Positions 23,164 through 41,304 of a DNA stretch of 64,000 bases are shown in pieces; position 1 is the first letter of the stretch; each line of letters begins with the position of its first letter. This DNA comes from a virus. The notes under the pieces were generated by a model. That model had not been told where the DNA came from. It made no database searches and saw nothing but the letters and a program-made list of their open reading frames with translations. Made by a program: the position numbers and the translations under genes. Where the stretch lies: the IMG/VR virus record IMGVR_UViG_3300022074_000013, positions 1 to 64,000 of that record. One strand, 5' to 3'.

Positions 23164-23403
23164 ATGTCAAAGTTCGCTTACGAAAAAGGACATGCAAAAG
23201 TAGAAGGACATTCGACTCTACTTAGAGAAGAAAGTTCAAGTGCGATTATTAATAATGATATCAACGGATATCAAGCTGCTATTAGAAGAAAAAAAGTTTT
23301 TCAAATACAGCGAGAGGAAATAAATACTTTAAAAGTAGAAATGACAGAGATAAAACAACTATTAGGTGAAATATTAGAGAGAACAAATGGCAAAAACGAT
23401 TGA
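23164..23403 (+). CDS. Small conserved coiled-coil protein
   Basis: KVEGHSTLLREESSSAIIN...EINTLKVEMTEIKQLL; typical gene after the VrlC-like protein. Confidence 0.7.
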   Translation: MSKFAYEKGHAKVEGHSTLLREESSSAIINNDINGYQAAIRRKKVFQIQREEINTLKVEMTEIKQLLGEILERTNGKND

Positions 23404-24976
23404 CCAATTTAGTACGTTAGAAAACTTTAGAACTCGTTACAACGATTTAGCAAATGACGTTGGGGATATCTCTGGCTTAAGAACAGACGTTACAGGAAAC
23501 CTAATAGACGCAATCAATAGTATAGAAGATAAAACATTCTTCTATCAAGAGTTTCTTTATACTGCGACCAGTGGACAAACTGCATTTACAGGAAATGACG
23601 CATTTAGTAATGACCTAGTATTCAAGAAAGATAGAATACAGGTTTATAAAAATGGTGCATTGTTAAGAGTTGGTGACGACTATGTTTTAGCAAGTCAACA
23701 ATCAGACGGAACATTCAAACAGATTACACTTATTTCAGGTGCTACCACAGGTGATAAAATCGCAATCCATGCCTTTACTGGTTCATTCTTAACAGTTCAA
23801 GGTGGTGGTGTCGGTGGTAGTTCTCTATTTACAGAAACTGCAAACAATACAATCTTTAACCATAATAGTAATGGTATAGTATTAAACGCAACCAATACTC
23901 CTTCTATCACTTCATTAGATACTGGTATAAACATTCAGTTAGAAGGTGTAACTAAAGTTGACGGTAATCTATCAGTTGATACTGGTCATACATTTACTGC
24001 TCCAACAATTACAGACGGAACAGGAACATTTACTGGTGGTAATGGTACTGGTTGGACAAGTATAACTTCTACTTCGTTTGCTGGTAACTTAACAGGTAAC
24101 GTTGCAGGTGATACTACAGGAACACACATTGGGCCGTTGAGTTCAAGTTCAGGTAATATTCAAGTTAATTCAGCAACATACATAACAGAATTTAGAGGTG
24201 GTGGTTCAACCGAAGGACAGATTAGACTTAACTGTCATGTTAACTCTCATGGTCAAACTATTAGACCTCAACCACATAGTGAAGGTGTTACAAATACATT
24301 AACACTTCCTGCAGGTGGTGACCAAGAATTAGTTGGTACAACTGATACTCAGACTTTAACAAATAAAACTATTACAGGTACATTTACAGGAACTTTAACA
24401 GGTACAACTTCTGATATTTCTAATCATAGTATTACAGGATTGAGTGACGTTGGTGGAAGTGCCCCAAGTGACGGACAGATACTTGTTTATAGTTCAAGTA
24501 ATAGCAGATACGAAGCTACAGACCAAAATACTTCTGACAGTGTGACAGAAGGTTCAAGTAATTTATATTTTACAAACGAAAGAGTTGACGATAGAGTTAA
24601 TGCACTGATAGTTGGTGGAACAGGTATAGCAACTGTATATGACGATGCAAGTAACACATTAACAATTAATGGTTCTGCTCAATACGGTAATGAAGATGTC
24701 CTAGATTTCTTAGGTGGCGGTGGACTAGTAGGTGGAAATGGTATAGATTTAACTTATAATGATTCCGCTAATACATTAACCATTCACAGTGATATTGAAG
24801 GTGGTGCTGGTATGCTTGCAACTACAGAAGCTACAGGAGAAAACACCATAAATATCGGCGCAGGTAAAGGTATAAAAGTCAATGCAGATGATGTGCAAAT
24901 TGACTACGAAGTAACTAACTCAGCTCCAGGCTCAGTTGGTTCAACTTCTGACGGTCACCTTTGGTTTGTGATATAG
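23387..24976 (+). CDS. Tail fibre / whisker-like protein
   Basis: N-terminal TLENFRTRYN coiled coil, G/T/S-rich shaft, TEGSSNLYFTNERVDDRV module, C-terminal APGS..DGHLWFVI. Confidence 0.7.
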   Translation: MAKTIDQFSTLENFRTRYNDLANDVGDISGLRTDVTGNLIDAINSIEDKTFFYQEFLYTATSGQTAFTGNDAFSNDLVFKKDRIQVYKNGALLRVGDDYVLASQQSDGTFKQITLISGATTGDKIAIHAFTGSFLTVQGGGVGGSSLFTETANNTIFNHNSNGIVLNATNTPSITSLDTGINIQLEGVTKVDGNLSVDTGHTFTAPTITDGTGTFTGGNGTGWTSITSTSFAGNLTGNVAGDTTGTHIGPLSSSSGNIQVNSATYITEFRGGGSTEGQIRLNCHVNSHGQTIRPQPHSEGVTNTLTLPAGGDQELVGTTDTQTLTNKTITGTFTGTLTGTTSDISNHSITGLSDVGGSAPSDGQILVYSSSNSRYEATDQNTSDSVTEGSSNLYFTNERVDDRVNALIVGGTGIATVYDDASNTLTINGSAQYGNEDVLDFLGGGGLVGGNGIDLTYNDSANTLTIHSDIEGGAGMLATTEATGENTINIGAGKGIKVNADDVQIDYEVTNSAPGSVGSTSDGHLWFVI

Positions 24977-24993: not shown

Positions 24994-26406
24994 ATGTCAG
25001 ACGAAATATATATAAACACCAAGAACACTCCGCATAGTCAACTAGGACAATTAGGTAGTTCAGGCAATTTTCAACAACCGTATCAAGGTCAAGCAGCTGT
25101 TACGGGTACTTTGCAGGCACAAAGAGCTGTAACTGGTCAAACTCCGACTACTTATCAGGCAAGATATCCATTTACTTACCAAGCAAACGCACGTGGAAGA
25201 TATCCATATCCTGCAAACTCTCAGACGCCATATCCTGCTTCAGCACAAGGACAATATCCATTTACTTATCCTGCGATAGGACAAAATCCCTATACGTTTG
25301 AATATATCGCAAGATATCCATTCGCTTATCAAGCAAGGTATCCGTATCCTGCAAACTATACAGCACAGGGAAGATATCCTGCTAATGCAAGTGGTACATA
25401 TCCTTATCAACAAAATTATCAAATAGCATATACTTTTCCGTATACCTATAGCGCCCGTAGACCTAGTCCTGCTAACCACCGTGGTACATATCCATATTCA
25501 GCGAGGACACAGGTAGTCAATAGGGCAAGATATCCGTTTACTACATCTACTCCCCTTTTTGGGCCTCACGGATATCAAGTTCCATATCCGTTCTTTTTTA
25601 GTTTTGACCCTAAAGACCCAGGCACAAATGCCCAAGGTCGAAGGCCTGCTAATAGACAAGGATATTATCAAGGGTCACAGAATGTAAGAGGTCGTACACC
25701 TTCTATTGCCAATGGAAGAAGACCTGTAAATGGTACAACTCCTTGGCCAGAACCTGAATTGAATTCACAGTTTCCGATTCCTTATGCGTATCAACAGCCT
25801 TATTCGTTTACTCCAAGAACACAACAACCATATATTGCAACTGGAAGATATCCATTTACACAGCAAAGTCAACAACCTTATATTACCAATGGGCAGGGAC
25901 AGGGTAGTACACAACACCAAAAAAATGCTCAAGGGCCTTATCCATTCACTTATCAAGCAAGATATCCATACCCTGCAACTTACCAAGCAAGAGGAAGATA
26001 TCCTGCTAGTGCACGTGGTATGTATCCAGCTCAAGCAAATGGACAACAACCGTTTAGTTATCAAGCAAACGCACGTGGAAGATATCCATTCATTTATACT
26101 GCACGTCAGCCAGGCACTTATCAAGCACAGGGAAGGTATCCATTTACATATCCTGCAAATGCTAGAGGAAGATATCCTGCTAGTGCACAGAATCCATATC
26201 CGTTCCAGCAGAACTATCAACAAAATTATATTTTCCAACAACCATATTCTACAACTAGAAGTATTGGTGCAGCTGCCAAAGTTAAAGCGGTGTACTTGAA
26301 TGACGCTGGAACTTTAAGAAAATTACAAGAAGTATATGTAAATAATCAAGGAACACTAGAAAAAACTCACCAAACAGTTCCAGCAGCTCAATTTAGTAAA
26401 TCATAA
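24994..26406 (+). CDS. Tyr/Pro/Gln/Arg-rich mirror-repeat protein A (putative fibre-tip filament/adhesin)
   Basis: 470 aa built from YQARYPFT, ANARGRYP and QQNYQ motifs in mirror register; paralogue of 32779-34152. Confidence 0.7.
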   Translation: MSDEIYINTKNTPHSQLGQLGSSGNFQQPYQGQAAVTGTLQAQRAVTGQTPTTYQARYPFTYQANARGRYPYPANSQTPYPASAQGQYPFTYPAIGQNPYTFEYIARYPFAYQARYPYPANYTAQGRYPANASGTYPYQQNYQIAYTFPYTYSARRPSPANHRGTYPYSARTQVVNRARYPFTTSTPLFGPHGYQVPYPFFFSFDPKDPGTNAQGRRPANRQGYYQGSQNVRGRTPSIANGRRPVNGTTPWPEPELNSQFPIPYAYQQPYSFTPRTQQPYIATGRYPFTQQSQQPYITNGQGQGSTQHQKNAQGPYPFTYQARYPYPATYQARGRYPASARGMYPAQANGQQPFSYQANARGRYPFIYTARQPGTYQAQGRYPFTYPANARGRYPASAQNPYPFQQNYQQNYIFQQPYSTTRSIGAAAKVKAVYLNDAGTLRKLQEVYVNNQGTLEKTHQTVPAAQFSKS

Positions 26407-30119: not shown

Positions 30120-30127
30120 TATAAATA
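30120..30127 (+). promoter_or_regulatory. Late promoter (fibre gene 30191)
   Basis: TATAAATA. Confidence 0.85.
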
Positions 30128-30190: not shown

Positions 30191-32755
30191 GTGGCTGCAA
30201 AGAATTTTCATGTAAAAAACGGACTGAGTATCGGTACAACCGAGGTAATCAACAGCTCAGGTCTTATACAAACAGCCGCACTAGGAAGTGATTTTAACGA
30301 AAAGGTTGACGACAGAGTCAACGCATTAATCGTTGCAGGAACAGGTATTTCTACCTCATATGATGATAGTGCAGGCACATTAACAATCAACGGACAAGTC
30401 GGGGATATCACGGGCGTAACTGCTGGTGACGGTCTTTCAGGTGGTGGAACAAGTGGTGCGATAACACTCGCACTGGATAGTTCAGTAGCTGGTGACGGTC
30501 TTGCACATTCAAGTGGTGTTCTATCAGTCGGAGTAGACGATAGTTCAATCGAAACAGATTCAGACGCATTAAGAATTAAAGCAAGTGGTGTTACTAATGC
30601 CATGTTGGCAGGTTCTATTGCAAACGATAAACTATCAAATTCATCAATTACAGTTTCAGACGGCAGTAATACAACTGCGACAGCATTAGGTGGAACAATA
30701 ACCTTTGCTGGTGGTGAAGGTATAGATGTTGCAGAAAGTTCAGGCACAGTCACATATTCAGCGGAACTTGCAACAGAAACAAACGCTGGTGTCGCAACAT
30801 TTGACGGAACAGACTTTACTGTATCAGCTGGTGATGTCACGGTAAACGCAGAAAGAATTCAAGATATCGTTGGTGCAATGGTATCAGGAAATACTGAAAG
30901 TGGTATCACAGTTACATATGAAGACGGTGACGGTACTTTAGACTTCTCTACTACACTAGGTGGTCTTGCTGGTACTTCTGATAATATCACAGAAGGTTCA
31001 ACAAATTTATTCCTTACCAACGAAAGAGTAGACGATAGAGTAAACGCACTATTGACTGCTGGTACAAACATGTCATTGACATATGACGATGCAGCTAATA
31101 CTTTAACAATTGCGTCTTCGGGTAAAACAGAAGAAGAAATAGAAGACATTGTTGGTGCACAACTTGCTACAAACGGTTCACACACAAATATCACTGCAAC
31201 ATATGACGATGCTGGTGACGGTGCGGTAGACCTTGCAATTACAGACGCAACAATCAGAGGAAAGGTTTCCGTAACAGATTCAGGTGGAGACGGTTCACTT
31301 GCATACAATAACTCTACAGGTGTTATCACATATACAGGCCCAAGTGCGTCAGAAGTAAGAGCACATATCTCAGGTGGAACAGGTGTTACTGTATCAAGTG
31401 GTGAAATTGCAATTGGACAAGCAGTTGCAACAAGTTCAAATGTAACTTTCGCAGACGTAGCTGCAACAGGTAATTTGACAGTTACAGGTAACTTAGATGT
31501 AAACGGAACAACCACAACTTTAGACACTACAAACTCAACAATTACAGATAGATTGATTGAGTTAGGAAATGGTACAACAGGAACACCTGCAAATGATATG
31601 GGTATTGTTCTTGAAAGAGGAGACTCAGACAACGCATTTATAGGTTGGGATGAAAGTGCAGACAAATTCTTAGTAGGTACAGGTTCATTTACAGGTGCAA
31701 GTACAGGTGACTTAACAGTTACTACAGGAACACTTGTAGCAAACTTAGAAGGTAACGTAACTGGTAACGTAACTGGTGACTTGACTGGTAACGTAACTGG
31801 TAACGTTAGTGGAACTGCAGCTACAGTAACAGGTGCAGCTCAAACAAACATTACAAGTCTTGGAACTCTTACAGCATTAACAGTAGACGATATTAGTATT
31901 GACGGTTCAAAGATATCTATAGCCGATAACTCAGCAACTGCTCTTACCATTTCAGAAGGTAGTAATGACTATTTAACTTTTAATACTACAGACTCAGCAG
32001 AAACAATATTATTAGGAAAACCTCTTGATACAAATGGTAATGCAATTATTTTTGATGTAGATGGTGATACATCAATTGCTGGTTCACCTATTGATGATAT
32101 GTTGATATTTAAATCTGGTGGAGCTTCATGGTTATTAGCTTCTGCAAATGTTGGTTTATCACCAAATGTTGCATTCCCCCTTGGTAATTCAAGTTATCCG
32201 TTTACCCATTTATATGTGGACAATATTTTTGTTGATGGTAATACAATTAAATCAGAAAATTCAGATGGCGATTTAATATTTAAAGGCAACGATGGCGGTT
32301 CAGAAATAACTGCTCTTACACTTGATATGTCTGAAGCAGGTGCAGCTACTTTTAATGCAGGAGTAACTGCTACTACATTTACAGGTGCATTAACTGGTAA
32401 CGTTACTGGTAACTTAACTGGTAATGTCACAGGTAATGTTAGTGGAACTTCAGGTTCAACAACAGGTAATGCCGCTACAGCAACTGCATTACAAAATGCA
32501 AGAACAATCAACGGAGTATCTTTTGACGGAACTGGAAACGTAACAACCTTGACTGCAGGAACAGGTGTTTCTGTATCAGGAACCGAAGTTGCAATCGGAC
32601 AAGCAGTTGCTACAAACAGTAACGTGACCTTTAATCAGATACACACCGACTACGCAAGTAATAGTGGACAAGTTGCAAGGAACATTTACCAATCAACTTC
32701 TGCTCCAAGTGGTGGAGACGGACAAGTCGGCGACTTATGGATTTTATACTCTTAA
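30191..32755 (+). CDS. Long tail fibre protein (GTG start)
   Basis: KNFHVKNGL N-terminus, DDRVNAL/TYDDA repeats, GNVT tetrapeptide runs, C-terminal SAPSGGDGQVGDLW. Confidence 0.75.
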   Translation: MAAKNFHVKNGLSIGTTEVINSSGLIQTAALGSDFNEKVDDRVNALIVAGTGISTSYDDSAGTLTINGQVGDITGVTAGDGLSGGGTSGAITLALDSSVAGDGLAHSSGVLSVGVDDSSIETDSDALRIKASGVTNAMLAGSIANDKLSNSSITVSDGSNTTATALGGTITFAGGEGIDVAESSGTVTYSAELATETNAGVATFDGTDFTVSAGDVTVNAERIQDIVGAMVSGNTESGITVTYEDGDGTLDFSTTLGGLAGTSDNITEGSTNLFLTNERVDDRVNALLTAGTNMSLTYDDAANTLTIASSGKTEEEIEDIVGAQLATNGSHTNITATYDDAGDGAVDLAITDATIRGKVSVTDSGGDGSLAYNNSTGVITYTGPSASEVRAHISGGTGVTVSSGEIAIGQAVATSSNVTFADVAATGNLTVTGNLDVNGTTTTLDTTNSTITDRLIELGNGTTGTPANDMGIVLERGDSDNAFIGWDESADKFLVGTGSFTGASTGDLTVTTGTLVANLEGNVTGNVTGDLTGNVTGNVSGTAATVTGAAQTNITSLGTLTALTVDDISIDGSKISIADNSATALTISEGSNDYLTFNTTDSAETILLGKPLDTNGNAIIFDVDGDTSIAGSPIDDMLIFKSGGASWLLASANVGLSPNVAFPLGNSSYPFTHLYVDNIFVDGNTIKSENSDGDLIFKGNDGGSEITALTLDMSEAGAATFNAGVTATTFTGALTGNVTGNLTGNVTGNVSGTSGSTTGNAATATALQNARTINGVSFDGTGNVTTLTAGTGVSVSGTEVAIGQAVATNSNVTFNQIHTDYASNSGQVARNIYQSTSAPSGGDGQVGDLWILYS

Positions 32756-32778
32756 TAAGGGTAACAGGATAATATAAT

Positions 32779-34152
32779 ATGGCATCAGGCTCACAGAAGG
32801 TTAAAACACCTACAGGCTGGAACGCAACTCAAGGTGCGTGGGTTAAAACGCCTGACGGTTGGCGTGCAGTAGAGCAAGTCTATATTAAAACGCCTGACGG
32901 GTGGAATAATGCTAGTGGTCAAGAAGATACACAACAACCTGCTCGAAGACCTGCAACTGGTAGACTTCAAGCACAAAGACCTGCAACTGGTCAATTACAG
33001 GCACAAAGACCTGCAATAGGAACAACACCTGCAAGAAGACCTGCGACTGGTAGACTTCAAGCACAAAGACCTGCATCAGGACAGTCGCCAAGCACTTATC
33101 AGGCGCAAGGAAGATATCCATATCCTGCCAATGCACAGGCACCTTATCCTGCTAATGGACAACAGCCAGGCACATATCCTGCTAACGCTCAGACGCCTGG
33201 CACATATCCTGCAAATGCTAGAGGAAGATATCCTGCTAACGGACAATCGCCAGGCACATATCCTGCTAATGCGAGACAGCCAGGAACTTATCAGGCAAGA
33301 TATCCATTTACTTATCCTGCTAACTCACAAAGTCCATTTACGTATCAGGCAAGATATCCATTTACATACCCTGCTAACTCACAGTCACCATTTACGTATC
33401 AGGCAAGATATCCGTTTATTGCACCTACAACATATCAGGCACCTACAACGTATCAGGCAAGATATCCATTTATTACACCTGCGAGACAACCTTTCACTTT
33501 CTCATTCATGAAAGACGGGATAGTTTATAACGGTCAGAATCCTTTTACTACAAGTGCAAGGGGTAGGTATCCTGCTAATACAACGTATCCTGCTAACACG
33601 AATACAAATGCACGTGGAAGATATCCTGCCAACGCAAGGCAGCCAGGAACTTATCAGAATAACGCAAGAGGAAGATACCCTGCTAATGCAAGACAGCCAG
33701 GCACATATCAAAACAATGCACGTGGAAGATATCCTGCGAACTCACAGTCACCATTTACTTATCAGACGCCTTATAGAACTCCGTTTACATATCAGGCAAG
33801 ATATCCATTTACATATCAAGCGTCTTATAGAATTCCGTCTACTTATCAGGCGTCTTATAGAACACCGTTTACGTATCAGGCAAGACAACCTAGCACGTAT
33901 CAAGCACAAGGAAGATATCCGTATCCTGCTAACGCACAGACATCATATAATTTCCAACAGAACTATCAGAACCCATACCCGTTCCAACAGAATTATCAAA
34001 ATCCGTATCCGTTCCAACAGAACTATCAGAACCCGTATCCGTTCCAACAGAACTATCAGAACCCGTACCCATACCAGCAGAACTATCAAAACCCTGTTCA
34101 ACGTTGGGACGGTGTGTTACAACAACAATGGCCTGCAACACCTATTTCGTAA
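32779..34152 (+). CDS. Tyr/Pro/Gln/Arg-rich mirror-repeat protein B (putative fibre-tip filament/adhesin)
   Basis: Three N-terminal (V/I)KTPxGW repeats, then about 390 aa of mirror-symmetric repeats about the central FSFMKDGIVY turn. Confidence 0.72.
   Translation: MASGSQKVKTPTGWNATQGAWVKTPDGWRAVEQVYIKTPDGWNNASGQEDTQQPARRPATGRLQAQRPATGQLQAQRPAIGTTPARRPATGRLQAQRPASGQSPSTYQAQGRYPYPANAQAPYPANGQQPGTYPANAQTPGTYPANARGRYPANGQSPGTYPANARQPGTYQARYPFTYPANSQSPFTYQARYPFTYPANSQSPFTYQARYPFIAPTTYQAPTTYQARYPFITPARQPFTFSFMKDGIVYNGQNPFTTSARGRYPANTTYPANTNTNARGRYPANARQPGTYQNNARGRYPANARQPGTYQNNARGRYPANSQSPFTYQTPYRTPFTYQARYPFTYQASYRIPSTYQASYRTPFTYQARQPSTYQAQGRYPYPANAQTSYNFQQNYQNPYPFQQNYQNPYPFQQNYQNPYPFQQNYQNPYPYQQNYQNPVQRWDGVLQQQWPATPIS
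32929..33078 (+). repeat. Five imperfect 30-bp repeats (xxQAQRPATG)
   Basis: agacctgcaactggt/agacttcaagcacaa units with period 30. Confidence 0.85.
33289..33396 (+). repeat. Two 54-bp repeats (YQARYPFTYPANSQSPFT)
   Basis: Direct inspection of DNA and protein. Confidence 0.85.
33607..33714 (+). repeat. Two 54-bp repeats (NARGRYPANARQPGTYQN)
   Basis: Direct inspection of DNA and protein. Confidence 0.85.
33952..34095 (+). repeat. Five near-perfect 30-bp tandem repeats (FQQNYQNPYP)
   Basis: ttccaacagaactatcagaacccgtatccg units. Confidence 0.9.
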
Positions 34153-34155
34153 CAC

Positions 34156-34163
34156 ACTAAATA
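34156..34163 (+). promoter_or_regulatory. Variant late promoter for the enzyme cluster
   Basis: ACTAAATA, the same variant as at 55775; CCTAAATA precedes gp3. Confidence 0.6.
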
Positions 34164-34188
34164 TACTCACATAAGTGAGATTTTTATT

Positions 34189-35715
34189 ATGACAGAAATT
34201 GACCATTTAATTGATTTTATTCCATTTCGCCTAGACTGGACGCAAGAAAGTGTTCGTAGACAACTCTTTTATAAGAGCGGTCACCATATTGGCAATATTC
34301 CTGTTAACGAAGACGGTTCTATTGATACTGAATGTGACACATATAAAGTTGTACAATACTTTGTAGATAATGTTTATGTTCCTAATGTGAAATTAGTAAC
34401 TTGGGGTGATATTAAAAAGTGCGGATTCATGCCTTTGGAATCATTTGGATTAGACTATCAAGCGTCTAATTATTTAAAGTATATTCCTAATTTCCATACT
34501 TACGGTGCTAGTATGAAAAAAATAACTACCGCAACGGGAGATATTACTGGTGGAAATGAAGATGGAAATGATATAACTGGTTCGGGATTTTATCATGGGT
34601 GTAAAGGACATTGGTTATTACATGATATTCAGAAGAATGGTTTAAATCAACCGATAACTATTGTATTACAAAAAAGCGGAAGAAACGATAGAATTGAATA
34701 CAACCCACATATACACCCTGGCTCAGTACGACAAGGTGTATTCGGTGCGACAGACGATGAAAGTATGACCTGTATTGTTTGGGACGCATATAACGCCTTT
34801 GATTGGATAGAACCTTTAACTACTGATGAGTGGTTAAGAAGTTTTACTACACCACAGTTTGACGGCATGAGACCGACACAATTACATGTATCTTACAATT
34901 ATACTAGTATTGAAGTGCAAACTTCGGGTGAATGGAATAATGGAAGGTCAGAACCCGATAGACAATGGAGAGAAAAAGTAAAGGATTTTTCTAAAAAGGT
35001 ATCAGAAAAATTCAATGGAAAACCTTTAAACATATATCTTGGGTATGATTCAAGACATGAAGATATAACAGACGTACAAATAAATTCTATTAATCAAGCA
35101 TGTCAAAGAGCAGTTAATGACTCACAGTGTAGATTTGAACCTGAAATAAAACTACTTGACGTATCAAAGATTCCCGAATATACTAGAGAGTACGCAAATC
35201 AATCGACAGAATTTACTTATAGCAGATTCTTAATTCCATACTTAGAAAATTATGAAGGGTTTAGTATATTCATAGATAATGATTTTGTATGGAAACAACC
35301 TTGGTATGAAATGTTTTATTTTCTACACCCCGACAATGCAGTAGCATGTGTTCAATATGAATATGAACTAGAAAAAATGTCTAAGACTAAAATGGGTGGT
35401 GAAGAGAATGTTATGTATCCTAAAAAGTTGTGGTCTAGTTTCATGATATTTAATAATGCTCATGAAGACTGTAAAAAATTAACACCCGAAGTTGTAAATA
35501 CTGCGAGTGGTCAATACTTACACCAGTTTGAATGGACTGATAGTATTGATAGAATCCCTGACAAATATGTCTTTACAGAAGGCATGTCAGACGAAGATAA
35601 AAGATATCATGCGGTGCATTATACAAGAGGTGGCCCATGGATAAAAGATATGGACTGTAGTGACATATCGCAATTAAAGTTATACGAAAAGTATAAAAAT
35701 ATACTCAATAAATAA
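34189..35715 (+). CDS. Fusion: ParB/Srx-like N-terminal domain + GT-A glycosyltransferase (GT8/CDI-like)
   Basis: C-terminal half: IYLGYDSRHE, STEFTYSRFLIPYL, IFIDNDF (DxD), KKLWSSFMIFN, LHQFEW, HYTRGGPW. N-terminal half: DIQKNGLNQPI...HPGSVR. Confidence 0.75.
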   Translation: MTEIDHLIDFIPFRLDWTQESVRRQLFYKSGHHIGNIPVNEDGSIDTECDTYKVVQYFVDNVYVPNVKLVTWGDIKKCGFMPLESFGLDYQASNYLKYIPNFHTYGASMKKITTATGDITGGNEDGNDITGSGFYHGCKGHWLLHDIQKNGLNQPITIVLQKSGRNDRIEYNPHIHPGSVRQGVFGATDDESMTCIVWDAYNAFDWIEPLTTDEWLRSFTTPQFDGMRPTQLHVSYNYTSIEVQTSGEWNNGRSEPDRQWREKVKDFSKKVSEKFNGKPLNIYLGYDSRHEDITDVQINSINQACQRAVNDSQCRFEPEIKLLDVSKIPEYTREYANQSTEFTYSRFLIPYLENYEGFSIFIDNDFVWKQPWYEMFYFLHPDNAVACVQYEYELEKMSKTKMGGEENVMYPKKLWSSFMIFNNAHEDCKKLTPEVVNTASGQYLHQFEWTDSIDRIPDKYVFTEGMSDEDKRYHAVHYTRGGPWIKDMDCSDISQLKLYEKYKNILNK

Positions 35716-36292: not shown

Positions 36293-37054
36293 GTGAACGT
36301 TGTCTACCACGACAAACCTTTCAGACTAACGAAAGATAATTATCCGTTAGGGGATACCTTTCATGTTATCGATAATTATTTGGCGGACGAATTACACCAC
36401 CATTGGGATAAGTCATTAGTCGCAAGTAACCTTTGGTCTAAAACTAATCAAGTTGCGTCCGATAGTAAAACAGGATTACCACATCATTCCTTTTGGGGTG
36501 GAACATTTTTTAGAGATGTTCCTAATCATGAACACGTAGATTGGTGTCAAGGAAATCAGATAAATCGTTCAGATACTTACTTTGCTTCATATTTTAATAC
36601 TAGAGTAATGAATGACTTTGGTTTTCGTTGGGTTGAGTTTGATTACATGGGTTTGAATTCACAAACTCAAGGACTAGACGGTACATGTCATAATGATTGT
36701 GCGCCTGAATGTGAGTGGAACATATCTTTTTTGTATTACTTAAATACATTTTGGAATCCTAAATGGGGCGGTGACTTAAGAGTGTATGATGAAAATATTG
36801 GTAGCGGTGTTGCAGAAGAAATGAACAAACACGAAATAGGAAGAATAGAATTTAAACCAAACAGATTACTTATGTTTGACGGAAGGATACCTCATGGTGC
36901 AGAAGCACCAAAACCTTCTGCAAGATATGTAGATAGACGTTCATGTGTATTGCGTGGTTCAGAAATAAGATTAGTACCTCAAGAAGAACAAAGAAAAGAA
37001 GTTGCACCAAGACAACTAAGATATCAGAGATATATGAGATATGCCGACAATTGA
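36293..37054 (+). CDS. 2OG-Fe(II) oxygenase (prolyl-4-hydroxylase-like)
   Basis: HND, SFLYYLNTFWNPKWGGDL, FKPNRLLMFDGRIPHGA, distal R; GTG start. Confidence 0.85.
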   Translation: MNVVYHDKPFRLTKDNYPLGDTFHVIDNYLADELHHHWDKSLVASNLWSKTNQVASDSKTGLPHHSFWGGTFFRDVPNHEHVDWCQGNQINRSDTYFASYFNTRVMNDFGFRWVEFDYMGLNSQTQGLDGTCHNDCAPECEWNISFLYYLNTFWNPKWGGDLRVYDENIGSGVAEEMNKHEIGRIEFKPNRLLMFDGRIPHGAEAPKPSARYVDRRSCVLRGSEIRLVPQEEQRKEVAPRQLRYQRYMRYADN

Positions 37055-37910: not shown

Positions 37911-38545
37911 AATACGAAGGATATACAGAGTTCGAGGCTAATAAAACTAAAGGTGATAACAATGTTGGAGTTGATATCGATAGTTTATACGAAGGACAAA
38001 CTAATGTTCAAATAGAAGGTTTTGATGTAGGTACAGACGCCAGTACACCTGCTTTTTATATTTGGAATTCTATGAACTGGCACGAAGATACTTATTGTGG
38101 TTGGAAAACTTTTAAAGGTGAACAAGACCATAATACACTGTCAACAGTATGGGAAACGAGGTGGTGGCATTCAATCCAACCAGCACCTTACAAGTATGTG
38201 GGTGGCCCTTATAGAGCTGCTGTTGCAGATTATACTTTTGGTGTGTTTGGATTATTCTTTTGTCAAAGGTTTGTTCCAATTACAGATTTGAGAGTCACTT
38301 ATGACAAAGCAATTAAAGTAGGTGATACTATAGAATGTGTAATAACAAACACTGTAATTGAAAATGACATTTTGAAACAAGAGTTAATTCAAAGAATTTA
38401 CGGTAGTGATGAAATTGTTGGTCGTGCTTGGGCAAGTCACTTCATGAAGAAGAAAGAAGACTATAAAGAAAAACAACAAGACTTAACTGAATTAAATGGT
38501 GACGGTAATCGTGACCGAGGAAGGTACGGGGAAGATGTCAGTTAG
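37907..38545 (+). CDS. Putative hotdog-fold (thioesterase/dehydratase-like) protein
   Basis: GGPYRAAVADYTFG helix followed by TDLRVTYDKAIKVGDTIECV. Confidence 0.5.
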   Translation: MKYEGYTEFEANKTKGDNNVGVDIDSLYEGQTNVQIEGFDVGTDASTPAFYIWNSMNWHEDTYCGWKTFKGEQDHNTLSTVWETRWWHSIQPAPYKYVGGPYRAAVADYTFGVFGLFFCQRFVPITDLRVTYDKAIKVGDTIECVITNTVIENDILKQELIQRIYGSDEIVGRAWASHFMKKKEDYKEKQQDLTELNGDGNRDRGRYGEDVS

Positions 38546-39296
38546 ATTACTGTTTCCACATTACGTATTTCAAAGAAATATGTTAGACCCAAATCTTGAC
38601 GAAAGTCAAGGATATGATTTGGAGTATAACGAAATGTTAGTTGCAGAAGTTGACGCAATGCGTAAGCGTGACCCTAAAGGTAGACTTGTATCTAATTCAC
38701 CTAACCCTGCTACAATGCATAGGTCGGGTTGGCAGTCTAATGACGGTTGTGAAAGTAGTCCAGTCTTTCAGAAATGTATGAATCGTATCAGTAAGTTTTT
38801 TTCTGACGAGGTTTTACCTTTTCATGGTATTCAAAATTCTAATGGTCTTAAAATGAGGCCAGGCAATTCATGGGCAAACATAAATGAAACTATGTCTTGG
38901 AATAGACCTCATACTCATAATGGTTGTTGGTATTCAGGTGTTTTATATCTAAAAGCAGACGGAGATGAAGGTAACTTTTCTGCAATTGATACAGACTCTA
39001 AAGTTCTGTCTATGTTTCCGCACCACCAAAGAGTTAGAACTAATTGGGACGTTCAACCTAGAACAGGAGATATTCATATATTTTCTAGTGGTTTAATGCA
39101 TATGGTTGAACCTAATATGACTGACAAAGAAAGATATAGCATATCGTTCAATATGGATTTACATGACGTGGTAGGCCCAACTGGATTCTTTCCTGATAAT
39201 GGTGCTGGTTACTTTGGTCAAGACTTTACTGTTGATGAATGGAATCCTGATGAATTTTCATTTAATTTAGACGAAAGAGGAAATCCAATACGTTAA
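38535..39296 (+). CDS. 2OG-Fe(II) oxygenase (TIGR02466-like)
   Basis: Likely start MSVRLLFP; GWQS, SWANIN..WNRPHTH..WYSGVLYL, FSSGLMHMVEPN..RYSISFN. Confidence 0.85.
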   Translation: MSVRLLFPHYVFQRNMLDPNLDESQGYDLEYNEMLVAEVDAMRKRDPKGRLVSNSPNPATMHRSGWQSNDGCESSPVFQKCMNRISKFFSDEVLPFHGIQNSNGLKMRPGNSWANINETMSWNRPHTHNGCWYSGVLYLKADGDEGNFSAIDTDSKVLSMFPHHQRVRTNWDVQPRTGDIHIFSSGLMHMVEPNMTDKERYSISFNMDLHDVVGPTGFFPDNGAGYFGQDFTVDEWNPDEFSFNLDERGNPIR

Positions 39297-40437: not shown

Positions 40438-41304
40438 ATGCCAACTAACGTATTCTTTAACCATGCAGTTCAGAGTGAACAACATCTATATGAAGATTTA
40501 GTTGTTGAATCTCTTAGAATGTATGGACAAGAGACATTCTACTTACCAAGACAGATAGTTGAAACAGATACTATTTTTGACGAAGACGTGCAGTCCAAAT
40601 TTGGTGACGCATACTCAGTAGAAATGTACATTGAAAACGCCGAAGGATTTGAGGGCGAAGGCGACCTCATGTCTAAATTTGGTGTAGAGATACGTGACCA
40701 AGCAACATTTGTTTTATCGGTAAGAAGTTGGGAAAGGTTTGTCGCCACAGACCAAAATTTAGCAACTAGTCTTAGACCTAACGAAGGAGATTTAATTTAT
40801 CTTCCTTTATCAGGTTCATTATTTGAAATTAAATTTGTAGAACACGAACAGCCTTTCTATCAAGTAGGTAAACTATTTGTATTTAAACTACAGGCAGAAC
40901 TATTTGAATACGCAGGTGAAGATTTTGATACTGGTTCAGACGCAGACTTTGTTGAGGCAGAACAAGCATACAGAGTTGACTTGAGAATGACCGCTGATGC
41001 ATCACCACCAAGTCCATATACTCTTGGTGAAAATGTAACATTAAATGGAACTGTTGTAGGTGAGGTTGTTGGATTTAGAGCTGACATAGCACCTGGCCAA
41101 TTAGAAGTAATACACGTAACTACTACATTTAAAGTTGGTGATACTATTGTTGGTGCAAGTTCGGGTACTTCAAGAGTTATCAATAGTATAGAAGATGTGA
41201 TATCTATGTCTCAGGACGGAAATGCTCAGAACTTAGACTTTGAAGGTAAAGCAGATAACTATCTAGACTTCTCAGAAACGAATCCATTTGGTGAGGTTAC
41301 ATAA
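40438..41304 (+). CDS. gp14: Neck protein
   Basis: EDLVVESLRMYG, SKFGVEIRD, RPNEGDLIY, FEIKFVEHEQPFYQ.GK, DFSETNPFG. Confidence 0.95.
   Translation: MPTNVFFNHAVQSEQHLYEDLVVESLRMYGQETFYLPRQIVETDTIFDEDVQSKFGDAYSVEMYIENAEGFEGEGDLMSKFGVEIRDQATFVLSVRSWERFVATDQNLATSLRPNEGDLIYLPLSGSLFEIKFVEHEQPFYQVGKLFVFKLQAELFEYAGEDFDTGSDADFVEAEQAYRVDLRMTADASPPSPYTLGENVTLNGTVVGEVVGFRADIAPGQLEVIHVTTTFKVGDTIVGASSGTSRVINSIEDVISMSQDGNAQNLDFEGKADNYLDFSETNPFGEVT

What the first reader, a model, noticed from the sequence alone, without database searches (positions are those of the whole stretch)
32779..34152. 'Protein palindrome': mirror-symmetric repeat arms with a motif-pairing code, implying a ~190-residue-per-arm antiparallel beta-hairpin
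Seen: around the turn FSFMK-D246-G247-IVY (DNA about 33511-33522), residues pair in a constant register i+j=493. Five xxQAQRPATG 10-mers (aa 51-100) face five QQNYQNPYPF 10-mers (393-442). STYQAQGRYPYPANAQ occurs at 105-120 and at 372-387, so it faces itself. The period series 10,10,8,10 of ANxQxPGTYP/ANARGRYP (125-162) is mirrored by YQxxYRxPFT/YQARYPFT (328-365). Two 18-mers YQARYPFTYPANSQSPFT face two 18-mers NARGRYPANARQPGTYQN, and YQAPTT 6-mers face YPANTT. The arms differ in sequence yet have matched copy numbers and lengths, so each duplication on one arm was compensated on the other, like covariation in an RNA stem. The arms are not reverse complements in DNA, so the constraint is at protein level. 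Inference: a single-chain, very long twisted two-stranded ribbon (tens of nm if extended) used as a fibre-tip filament or adhesin. I do not recognise this as a described phage protein class.
Basis: partly seen in the sequence, partly recalled or inferred. Interest (0 to 1): 0.95.

Follow-up and report, generated by a model that had tools for sequence, protein, structure and literature searches.

The report
Fold-back coded zipper fibre protein
A late gene of an uncultured marine T4-like phage encodes a 457-residue chain whose two halves match residue by residue when one is read backwards, a rule that related phages keep even when the halves are two separate genes, so the chain most likely folds back on itself into a very long thin fibre of a design I could not find described.

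Summary
ORF 32779-34152 (+, 457 aa) has an N-terminal three-hairpin domain, two ~190-residue repeat arms around the turn M244-K-D-G247, and a conserved C-tail. Both arms keep a strict two-residue rhythm that flips once, at the turn. None of 5000 shuffles of arm 2 reaches this.

Relatives decide the case. Six fused orthologues keep near-equal arms (171/184 to 240/240). In 29 other phages the arms are two adjacent genes whose lengths run from about 170 to 440 residues with r=0.996. The same anchored register is the best one in 33 of 35 proteins or pairs. Cognate pairs are almost clash-free (0.19%); non-cognate pairs are not (9.6%). The code is Tyr/Phe:Ala/Gly, Pro:Gln/Arg, Asn:Thr.

AlphaFold2 is confident only for the N-domain and the tip hairpin, so the beta-ribbon shape, oligomeric state and function are inferred. 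The gene always sits between a fibre gene ending ...GDLWILYS and a glycosyltransferase-like gene. I found no Pfam, PHROG, PDB or cultured-phage relative. This scan had already found the two-gene form on other genomes; this window holds the one-chain form, plus a second paralogue.

The parts
32779..34152 (+). Whole gene of the fold-back repeat protein (457 aa, P0001)
   Evidence: Only long ORF filling the gap between the flanking genes. Full-length orthologues at 55-69% identity occur in IMG/VR contigs.
32779..32928 (+). N-terminal base domain, aa 1-50, three KTPxGW hairpin repeats
   Evidence: AF2 strands E7-10/13-16, E20-24/27-31 and E35-38/41-44, pLDDT 66-89. Nearly invariant in relatives. 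Always on the arm-1 protein in split pairs.
32929..33507 (+). Arm 1, aa 51-243 (outgoing strand): five xxQAQRPATG units, then 6/8/10/18-residue Tyr/Pro units
   Evidence: All 60 Pro/Tyr/Phe of aa 54-243 keep one two-residue phase. Pairs with arm 2 at i+j=491.
33508..33519 (+). Tip turn M244-K245-D246-G247
   Evidence: The phase flips here. AF2 places a beta-hairpin at E240-245/E248-253, block pLDDT 80, and again. Under the 491 code the closing pair is F243:I248.
33520..34098 (+). Arm 2, aa 248-440 (returning strand), ending in five QQNYQNPYPF units
   Evidence: All 66 Pro/Tyr/Phe of aa 250-439 keep one phase, opposite to arm 1. Complementary to arm 1.
34099..34152 (+). C-tail, aa 441-457 (QRWDGVLQQQWPATPIS) plus stop
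   Evidence: Invariant in the six fused orthologues. Present at the end of every arm-2 protein of the split pairs. Under antiparallel pairing it lies next to the N-domain.
30191..32755 (+). Upstream fibre-like gene (854 aa) ending ...GDLWILYS
   Evidence: PHROG structural and tail-fibre hits. An ORF with the same C-terminal motif lies directly upstream of the module in all 31 loci that reach that far. A T4-type late box TATAAATA lies at 30120.
34189..35715 (+). Downstream conserved 508-aa gene; its C-terminal half is glycosyltransferase-like
   Evidence: A homologue (40-86% identity) lies directly downstream in 35 of 37 loci. aa 268-490 match annotated phage sugar transferases. ESM Atlas neighbours are viral GT8-type clusters (a lead only). 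No Pfam hit.
24994..26406 (+). Second fold-back paralogue in the same window (470 aa, P0122), also behind a fibre-like gene (23387-24976)
   Evidence: Found by a search of the window's own genome. Unique antiparallel register i+j=450 with 61 aromatic:small, 1 aromatic:aromatic and 3 Pro:Pro pairs, z=6.0.

Best explanation
P0001 is the one-chain form of a two-arm fibre module found in the host-recognition region of marine T4-like phages. Arm 1 (aa 51-243) runs out from a small N-terminal three-hairpin domain to a four-residue turn (M244-G247). Arm 2 (aa 248-440) runs back antiparallel, so that residue i faces residue 491-i. The conserved C-tail therefore ends up beside the N-domain.

Each rung follows a size and shape code: Tyr/Phe face Ala/Gly, Pro faces Gln/Arg, Asn faces Thr. 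The strict two-residue rhythm puts the aromatic/small rungs on one face and the Pro/polar rungs on the other. This is what a two-stranded antiparallel beta-ribbon needs. Fully extended, about 194 rungs would span roughly 65 nm.

Shown: the complementarity, its register, and its co-variation in relatives, including two-gene forms.

Inferred: the beta conformation; that pairing is within one chain; that the base docks on the fibre protein encoded just upstream; and that the filament serves host contact.
For: Within P0001: register 491 gives 63 aromatic:small, 49 Pro:Gln/Arg and 18 Asn:Thr pairs with 1 clash. Shuffles give 33, 21, 4 and 19, and 0 of 5000 reach the observed values. The two-residue phase is perfect in each arm and flips once at the turn.

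Family:
- Arm spans stay near-equal in the fused orthologues while total length varies from 434 to 561 aa.
- 29 distinct split pairs have r=0.996, slope 1.03, SD of the difference 5.9 against SD of length 59.
- The same anchored offset is best in 33 of 35 cases, whereas the parallel alignment has no consistent optimum.
- The clash rate is 0.19% in cognate pairs against 9.6% in 1100 non-cognate pairings, with no overlap.
- Over about 7,800 rungs, Tyr:Tyr is 0 (102 expected), Ala:Ala 0 (106 expected) and Pro:Pro 13 (158 expected).
- Rung indels are shared by both genes, for example blocks of 10+8+28 rungs between L028 and L063.

Topology: the fused forms join arm 1 to arm 2 by a few residues only, which forces an antiparallel arrangement. 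AF2 predicts the tip hairpin.

Context: baseplate, sheath, portal and capsid genes surround the gene. The order fibre gene, module, 508-aa gene is conserved. A late-type promoter box lies upstream. The region lies upstream of the neck-protein gene, which fits the host recognition cluster described in PMC7029224.
Against: AlphaFold2 leaves both arms unstructured, pLDDT about 40 with a 64-row alignment and about 35 with orthologues only. Pro makes up 14% of the chain and Gln, Asn, Gly and Ala are abundant, a composition that usually reads as disordered. A free two-stranded ribbon of this length has no solved precedent that I know of. AF2's local tip hairpin uses i+j=493, two residues off the code register. 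A few relatives are unbalanced: L022 lacks one 18-residue unit in arm 1, and P0097 lacks 36 residues in arm 2 only. There is no virion or expression proof.
Confidence: 0.75

Rival explanations
1. A trimeric, six-stranded needle like the stem of the T4 long tail fibre tip. Three fold-back chains pack their aromatic/small faces into a common core. The aromatic:small rule would then be a core-packing rule rather than a feature of a free ribbon.
For: In T4 gp37 the chain runs out and back (D10 is made of residues 811-881 plus 1010-1026). G921 must be Gly because it faces F970 of the hydrophobic core (PMC6957217). Phage fibres are usually trimers, and the gene follows a fibre gene. One large plus one small residue per rung suits a closed core.
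Against: P0001 has no His, so no HxH iron sites, and no sequence relation to gp37 or any solved chain. The outer Pro/polar face obeys an equally strict code (Pro:Gln/Arg, Asn:Thr), which a core-only rule does not explain. Frequent Pro on one edge would cost hydrogen bonds in a closed six-stranded sheet (inference). The N-domain has three repeats in one chain, which would fit one chain docking on a trimer (inference).
Confidence: 0.3
2. The arms pair between molecules, not within one chain. Arm 1 of one chain zips to arm 2 of another, giving polymers or a mesh.
For: The split relatives prove that pairing can work between two chains. The code itself does not distinguish pairing within a chain from pairing between chains.
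Against: A four-residue tip and a predicted tight hairpin favour closure within the chain. The arms are kept equal in length, which a staggered polymer would not need. The N-domain and C-tail always sit at the two ends that meet.
Confidence: 0.1
3. A disordered, prion-like low-complexity spacer. The mirror pattern would be a by-product of repeat expansion with no structural meaning.
For: The composition is rich in Gln, Asn, Tyr and Pro. AF2 confidence is low. The halves share motifs when read in the same direction.
Against: A disordered spacer has no reason to keep the two-residue phase over hundreds of residues. It also has no reason to match the lengths of two separate genes with r=0.996, or to be clash-free only with the cognate partner.
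Confidence: 0.04
4. The arms pair in parallel, or the two halves are simply a direct tandem duplication.
For: The direct local alignment of the halves scores 377 against 167 reversed.
Against: Parallel scans give scattered optima with many clashes, while the antiparallel optimum is constant. The fused forms have no linker long enough for a parallel return. The direct similarity follows from both arms using the same set of mutually complementary motifs.
Confidence: 0.02

Closest known systems
Needle (D10-D11 stem) of the phage T4 long tail fibre protein gp37 (PDB 2XGF; PMC6957217)
   Same: A fibre part of a T4-like phage in which the chain runs out to a tip and back, so both flanks sit at the base. 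A Gly in one strand is needed to make room for a core Phe of another strand (G921/F970).
   Different: gp37 is a trimer held by seven iron ions bound to His motifs. Its stem spans roughly 130 residues of each chain (882-1009). It is one gene. P0001 has no His, no detectable sequence relation, about 190 residues per arm (up to 430 in relatives), a two-face residue code, and exists as one or two genes.
Streptococcal antigen I/II (SpaP/SspB) stalk (my own knowledge; Larson et al. 2010)
   Same: A fold-back stalk in which two different repeat regions of one chain pair along their length and present a tip.
   Different: That stalk pairs an alpha-helix with a polyproline-II helix, whose rise per residue differs about two-fold. 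Here the arm lengths are 1:1 (slope 1.03) with a two-residue rhythm, which points to strand-strand pairing.
Silk fibroin (GAGAGS)n and other period-2 beta repeats (my own knowledge)
   Same: Strict alternation puts two different residue classes on the two faces of a beta structure.
   Different: Silk stacks many identical strands into crystallites. Here exactly two non-identical partners match rung by rung, with Pro on one face.
Hint / bacterial intein-like domains on relatives of arm 1 (Pfam PF14890, PF01079, PF14623, PF05203)
   Same: Many arm-1 proteins of the family end in such a self-cleaving domain.
   Different: P0001 has none. In its place the chain continues directly into arm 2.

Membership tests
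T4 gp37-type fibre needle | The chain runs out and back so that both flanks lie at the base | tested here: met
   Antiparallel register i+j=491 along the whole arms. The tip hairpin appears in AF2. This is a topological likeness only.
T4 gp37-type fibre needle | His-x-His motifs binding iron along the axis | tested here: not met
   P0001 contains no His at all.
T4 gp37-type fibre needle | Sequence or profile similarity to gp37 or another solved fibre | tested here: not met
   No Pfam, PHROG or PDB sequence match.
T4 gp37-type fibre needle | Homotrimer | not testable with these tools
   No oligomer test was run. The single complex job went on a split X/Y pair and gave no answer.
Two-gene 'mirror-coded' arm pairs of marine T4-like phages (this scan's earlier findings; not in the literature I searched) | N-domain with KTPxGW repeats at the start of arm 1 and a RWD...WPATP tail at the end of arm 2 | tested here: met
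   Both are present in P0001 and in all fused and split relatives.
Two-gene 'mirror-coded' arm pairs of marine T4-like phages (this scan's earlier findings; not in the literature I searched) | Arms complementary in one anchored antiparallel register with almost no aromatic:aromatic or Pro:Pro rungs | tested here: met
   Offset -6 from the anchors in 33 of 35 cases, P0001 included; code table.
Two-gene 'mirror-coded' arm pairs of marine T4-like phages (this scan's earlier findings; not in the literature I searched) | Sits between a fibre gene ending GDLWILYS and a homologue of the 508-aa gene | tested here: met
   31 of 31 upstream and 35 of 37 downstream.
Hint / intein-like self-cleaving proteins | Hint domain beginning with Cys after a Gly run and ending in His-Asn | tested here: not met
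   P0001 has no Cys and no Pfam hit. Relatives do carry the domain.
Collagen-like or polyproline-II fibre repeats | Three-residue periodicity (Gly-X-Y) | tested here: not met
   The periodicity is two residues, with unit lengths of 6, 8, 10 and 18.
Prion-like or disordered low-complexity domain | Gln/Asn/Tyr-rich composition with no positional constraint | tested here: not met
   The composition fits, but phase, length and partner constraints are strict.

The most novel reading that the evidence does not exclude
Two protein strands recognise each other over 170-430 residues through a simple rung code (aromatic:Ala/Gly, Pro:Gln/Arg, Asn:Thr). This would be a protein counterpart of base pairing. 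Phages would use it to build thin filaments of tunable length, either from two genes or from one fold-back chain. In relatives, the Hint domain at the tip end of arm 1 might even join the two chains covalently.
Probability: 0.45. Interest if true: 0.95.

Novelty: categorically new. Interest (0 to 1): 0.88.

Why it matters
If the arms really zip as the co-variation implies, three things follow.
- It would be a new structural principle for phage fibres: a sequence-coded, length-adjustable two-strand filament about 60-140 nm long in abundant ocean phages, sitting in the region that decides host recognition.
- It would give protein designers a natural, evolution-tested pairing code for long beta-ribbons.
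- It would explain hundreds of 'low-complexity' hypothetical proteins in marine viromes.

The one-chain form in this window matters because its short tip fixes the antiparallel orientation, which the two-gene forms alone cannot prove.

Tried and rejected
- My first reading was that the halves are only a direct tandem super-repeat, and that the one-arm relatives with a Hint domain refute a hairpin. I dropped it when the missing arm turned up as the adjacent gene.
- Complex prediction on the natural split pair of L051 (alignments A2 and A3): no answer, score 0.00. This is no evidence either way.
- The second AlphaFold2 run, with orthologues only (A4), gave mean pLDDT 36 and the same tip hairpin at low confidence. 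It is not informative for the arms.
- Window-by-window register scans are ambiguous because shifts of 10 or 18 residues score alike locally. Only the global register is informative.
- I searched cultured phages for relatives: megablast of the region, tblastn of P0001, tblastn of its N-domain, and tblastn of the paralogue's C-domain gave nothing usable. The glycosyltransferase homologue in Pelagibacter phage Mosig is not next to a fibre module.
- Literature searches for Hint plus phage fibre, pelagimyophage fibre repeats and two-stranded ribbon fibres found no description.
- Public reads: Logan contigs of two DNA runs match 32600-34032 exactly but break inside the 30-nt QQNYQNPYPF array, so they do not bridge its copy number. 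These runs may be the source sample. Exact pieces occur in two oligo-dT RNA libraries of one study, which does not prove transcription.

Full report
**What is there.** The window is part of a 94.8-kb IMG/VR virus record. It carries T4-type baseplate wedge, tail sheath, portal and major capsid genes. The capsid protein is 67.5% identical to that of the OM43 phage Melnitz and 65% to Pelagibacter phage HTVC008M. ORF 32779-34152 (+) encodes 457 residues. It begins 23 nt after an 854-aa fibre-like gene (PHROG structural and tail-fibre hits), and a T4-type late box TATAAATA lies at 30120 in front of that gene. A neck-protein gene follows at 40438. The locus therefore fits the 'host recognition cluster' that PMC7029224 describes between VrlC and gp14.

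**Check of the observation.** Tandem arrays of 18, 24, 30, 54 and 84 nt fill the gene. The DNA has direct repeats only and no inverted repeats. The protein is Gln 64, Pro 63, Ala 55, Tyr 51, Thr 46, Asn 36, Arg 36, with no His and no Cys.

- In aa 51-245 all 19 Tyr, 9 Phe and 31 Ala are at odd positions and all 32 Pro at even positions.
- In aa 246-442 all 31 Tyr, 9 Phe and 18 Ala are at even positions and all 26 Pro at odd positions.
- The single phase flip lies at the turn.

**First doubt, then reversal.** The halves align better in the same direction than reversed (377 against 167). The best database relatives seemed to have only one arm followed by a Hint/intein domain. That looked like a refutation.

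Fetching relatives with their DNA changed the picture. Six fused orthologues (55-69% identity, same N-domain and C-tail) range from 434 to 561 aa. With P0001 included, the two phased arm spans are 171/184, 190/190, 194/197, 222/223, 228/226, 236/234 and 240/240. The copy numbers of the unrelated outer arrays (xxQAQRPATG and QQNYQNPYPF) are 5/5 in five proteins and 4/4 in two.

In the other loci, the 'one-arm' proteins have their second arm in the adjacent gene:
- X carries the N-domain plus arm 1, with or without a Hint domain.
- Y carries arm 2 plus the C-tail.
- The gene order is XY or YX.

Over 29 distinct pairs the arm lengths run from 189 to 440 (X) and 174 to 430 (Y). Pearson r is 0.996 and the slope is 1.03. 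The SD of the difference is 5.9, against an SD of length of 59.

**The code.** I anchored each comparison at the end of the N-domain and the start of the C-tail and scanned 121 antiparallel offsets. The same offset (-6) gives the most aromatic:small pairs in 33 of 35 distinct proteins or pairs, with no or almost no aromatic:aromatic pairs and few or no Pro:Pro pairs over 174-430 rungs. Parallel scans give scattered optima with many clashes.

For P0001 this register is i+j=491: 63 aromatic:small, 1 aromatic:aromatic and 0 Pro:Pro pairs.

Pooled over about 7,800 rungs the rule is sharp:

| Rung | Observed | Expected |
|---|---|---|
| Tyr:Ala | 910 | - |
| Phe:Ala | 578 | - |
| Tyr:Gly | 284 | - |
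| Pro:Gln | 1109 | - |
| Pro:Arg | 918 | - |
| Asn:Thr | 722 | - |
| Tyr:Tyr | 0 | 102 |
| Ala:Ala | 0 | 106 |
| Pro:Pro | 13 | 158 |

The clash rate stays near zero in every 50-rung bin from base to tip. Beyond the first 60 rungs, cognate pairs have 0.19% clashes (maximum 1.3%), while 1100 non-cognate X/Y pairings have 9.6% (minimum 2.0%).

Within P0001 alone, 5000 shuffles of arm 2 that keep parity and units never reach the observed values.

Rung alignments show that length changes between relatives are shared by both arms or genes. For example, L028 and L063 differ by blocks of 10, 8 and 28 rungs, and L015 and L048 by 8, 2, 6 and 6.

The direct similarity of the halves is explained because both arms draw on the same set of mutually complementary motifs.

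**Structure.** The 1:1 length ratio, the two-residue rhythm and the two-face code fit two antiparallel beta strands. One face carries aromatic over small residues; the other carries Pro against Gln/Arg and Asn against Thr. The fused forms join the arms by a few residues, which forces the antiparallel orientation.

AlphaFold2 with a 64-row alignment is confident only in two places:
- the N-domain, three hairpins at pLDDT 66-89;
- a tip hairpin E240-245/E248-253, block pLDDT 80.

The arms stay at about 40. An orthologue-only alignment gave the same tip at low confidence.

AF2's tip pairs 245 with 248 (sum 493). The family code implies a four-residue loop M244-G247 closed by F243:I248 (sum 491). 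I cannot resolve this two-residue difference.

If the closing pair is hydrogen-bonded, all Pro would fall on the positions whose NH points away from the partner strand. That is inference from textbook hairpin geometry. Whether the ribbon is free, or three copies pack into a gp37-like needle, remains open.

**Context and function.** In every related locus that reaches far enough, the order is the same:
- Upstream gene: a fibre gene ending ...GD(L/M)W(I/V)(L/Y)YS, in 31 of 31 loci.
- Module: fused or split.
- Downstream gene: a homologue of the 508-aa protein, in 35 of 37 loci.

The C-terminal half of that protein matches annotated phage sugar transferases and has GT8-type neighbours in the ESM Atlas (a lead only). 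Two 2OG-Fe(II) oxygenases follow.

Some relatives of arm 1 end in globular domains or Hint domains, which would sit at the tip.

My reading, as inference, is this. The base (N-domain plus C-tail) docks on the upstream fibre. The zipped arms form a thin stalk of about 65 nm here and 58-145 nm across the family. The tip or the ribbon surface contacts the host.

P0001 has about 41 Arg/Lys against 7 Asp/Glu, so it is strongly cationic. That would suit binding to anionic envelope polymers.

**Exceptions.**
- L022 lacks one 18-residue unit in arm 1 relative to its near-twin L033.
- L030 does not give the common global optimum.
- In the paralogous subfamily, P0097 lacks 36 residues in arm 2 only, compared with the 89%-identical P0067. 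The register of the remainder is unchanged.

These may be assembly collapses of repeats or tolerated overhangs.

**Novelty.** I found no Pfam, PHROG or PDB relative, none in 50,697 GenBank phage records, and no description in the literature searches.

After my own analysis I looked up earlier notes of this scan. The two-gene form had already been found and followed up on several other genomes, with the same conclusion. Those notes also led me to the gp37 paper. This window adds the single-chain form and a second paralogue (24994-26406, register 450).

The closest known structure is the fold-back needle of T4 gp37, where a Gly must face a core Phe (PMC6957217). P0001 fails that family's defining tests: it has no His and no sequence relation.

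Noticed in passing
window 24994-26406 (+), behind fibre-like gene 23387-24976: A second fold-back repeat protein (470 aa), with a different N-terminus (MSDEIYINT...) and a C-terminal VY(V/L)N..GTL domain. It has its own unique antiparallel register i+j=450 (61 aromatic:small, 1 aromatic:aromatic, 3 Pro:Pro, z=6.0). Relatives P0047, P0067, P0069, P0070, P0079, P0083, P0107, P0109 and P0118 behave the same way.
   Followed up: partly
window 34189-35715 (+): A 508-aa gene that follows the module in 35 of 37 related loci. Its C-terminal half matches annotated phage nucleotide-sugar transferases and has GT8-type Atlas neighbours. Its N-terminal half has no match. It may modify or help assemble the fibre.
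   Followed up: partly
window 36293-37054 and 38496-39296 (+): Two 2OG-Fe(II) oxygenase genes (PF13640 and PF13759) a few genes downstream of the Pro-rich repeat protein. Whether they hydroxylate it is untested.
   Followed up: no
window, 13 sites, e.g. 30120, 26411, 26969, 39587: The T4 late-promoter box TATAAATA occurs 13 times, all on the + strand (5.7 expected; no shuffle reaches 13), mostly just in front of structural genes.
   Followed up: no
loci L028-L042, L055, L059, L063, L064, L069, L070 (arm-1 genes): Many arm-1 proteins end in a Hint/intein-like domain (Gly run, Cys, ... His-Asn). Under antiparallel pairing this domain sits at the tip, next to the N-terminus of the arm-2 protein. 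Whether it only cleaves itself off or links the two chains is unknown.
   Followed up: no
loci L022, L030; proteins P0067/P0097: Rare unbalanced members. In L022 arm 1 is one 18-residue unit shorter than in its near-twin L033. P0097 lacks 36 residues in arm 2 only. These could be assembly collapse of repeats or tolerated overhangs.
   Followed up: partly
window 32600-34300 in public runs: Near-identical DNA is held by seawater and viral metagenome runs of 2017-2025. Exact pieces also occur in two oligo-dT marine RNA libraries of one study. Logan contigs break inside the 30-nt QQNYQNPYPF array.
   Followed up: partly
proteins P0005, P0029, P0042, P0064, P0100, P0112: Some relatives carry a 130-220-residue globular domain with no Pfam family on record after the arm instead of a Hint domain. 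Under the fold-back model this would be a tip domain and a candidate receptor binder.
   Followed up: no
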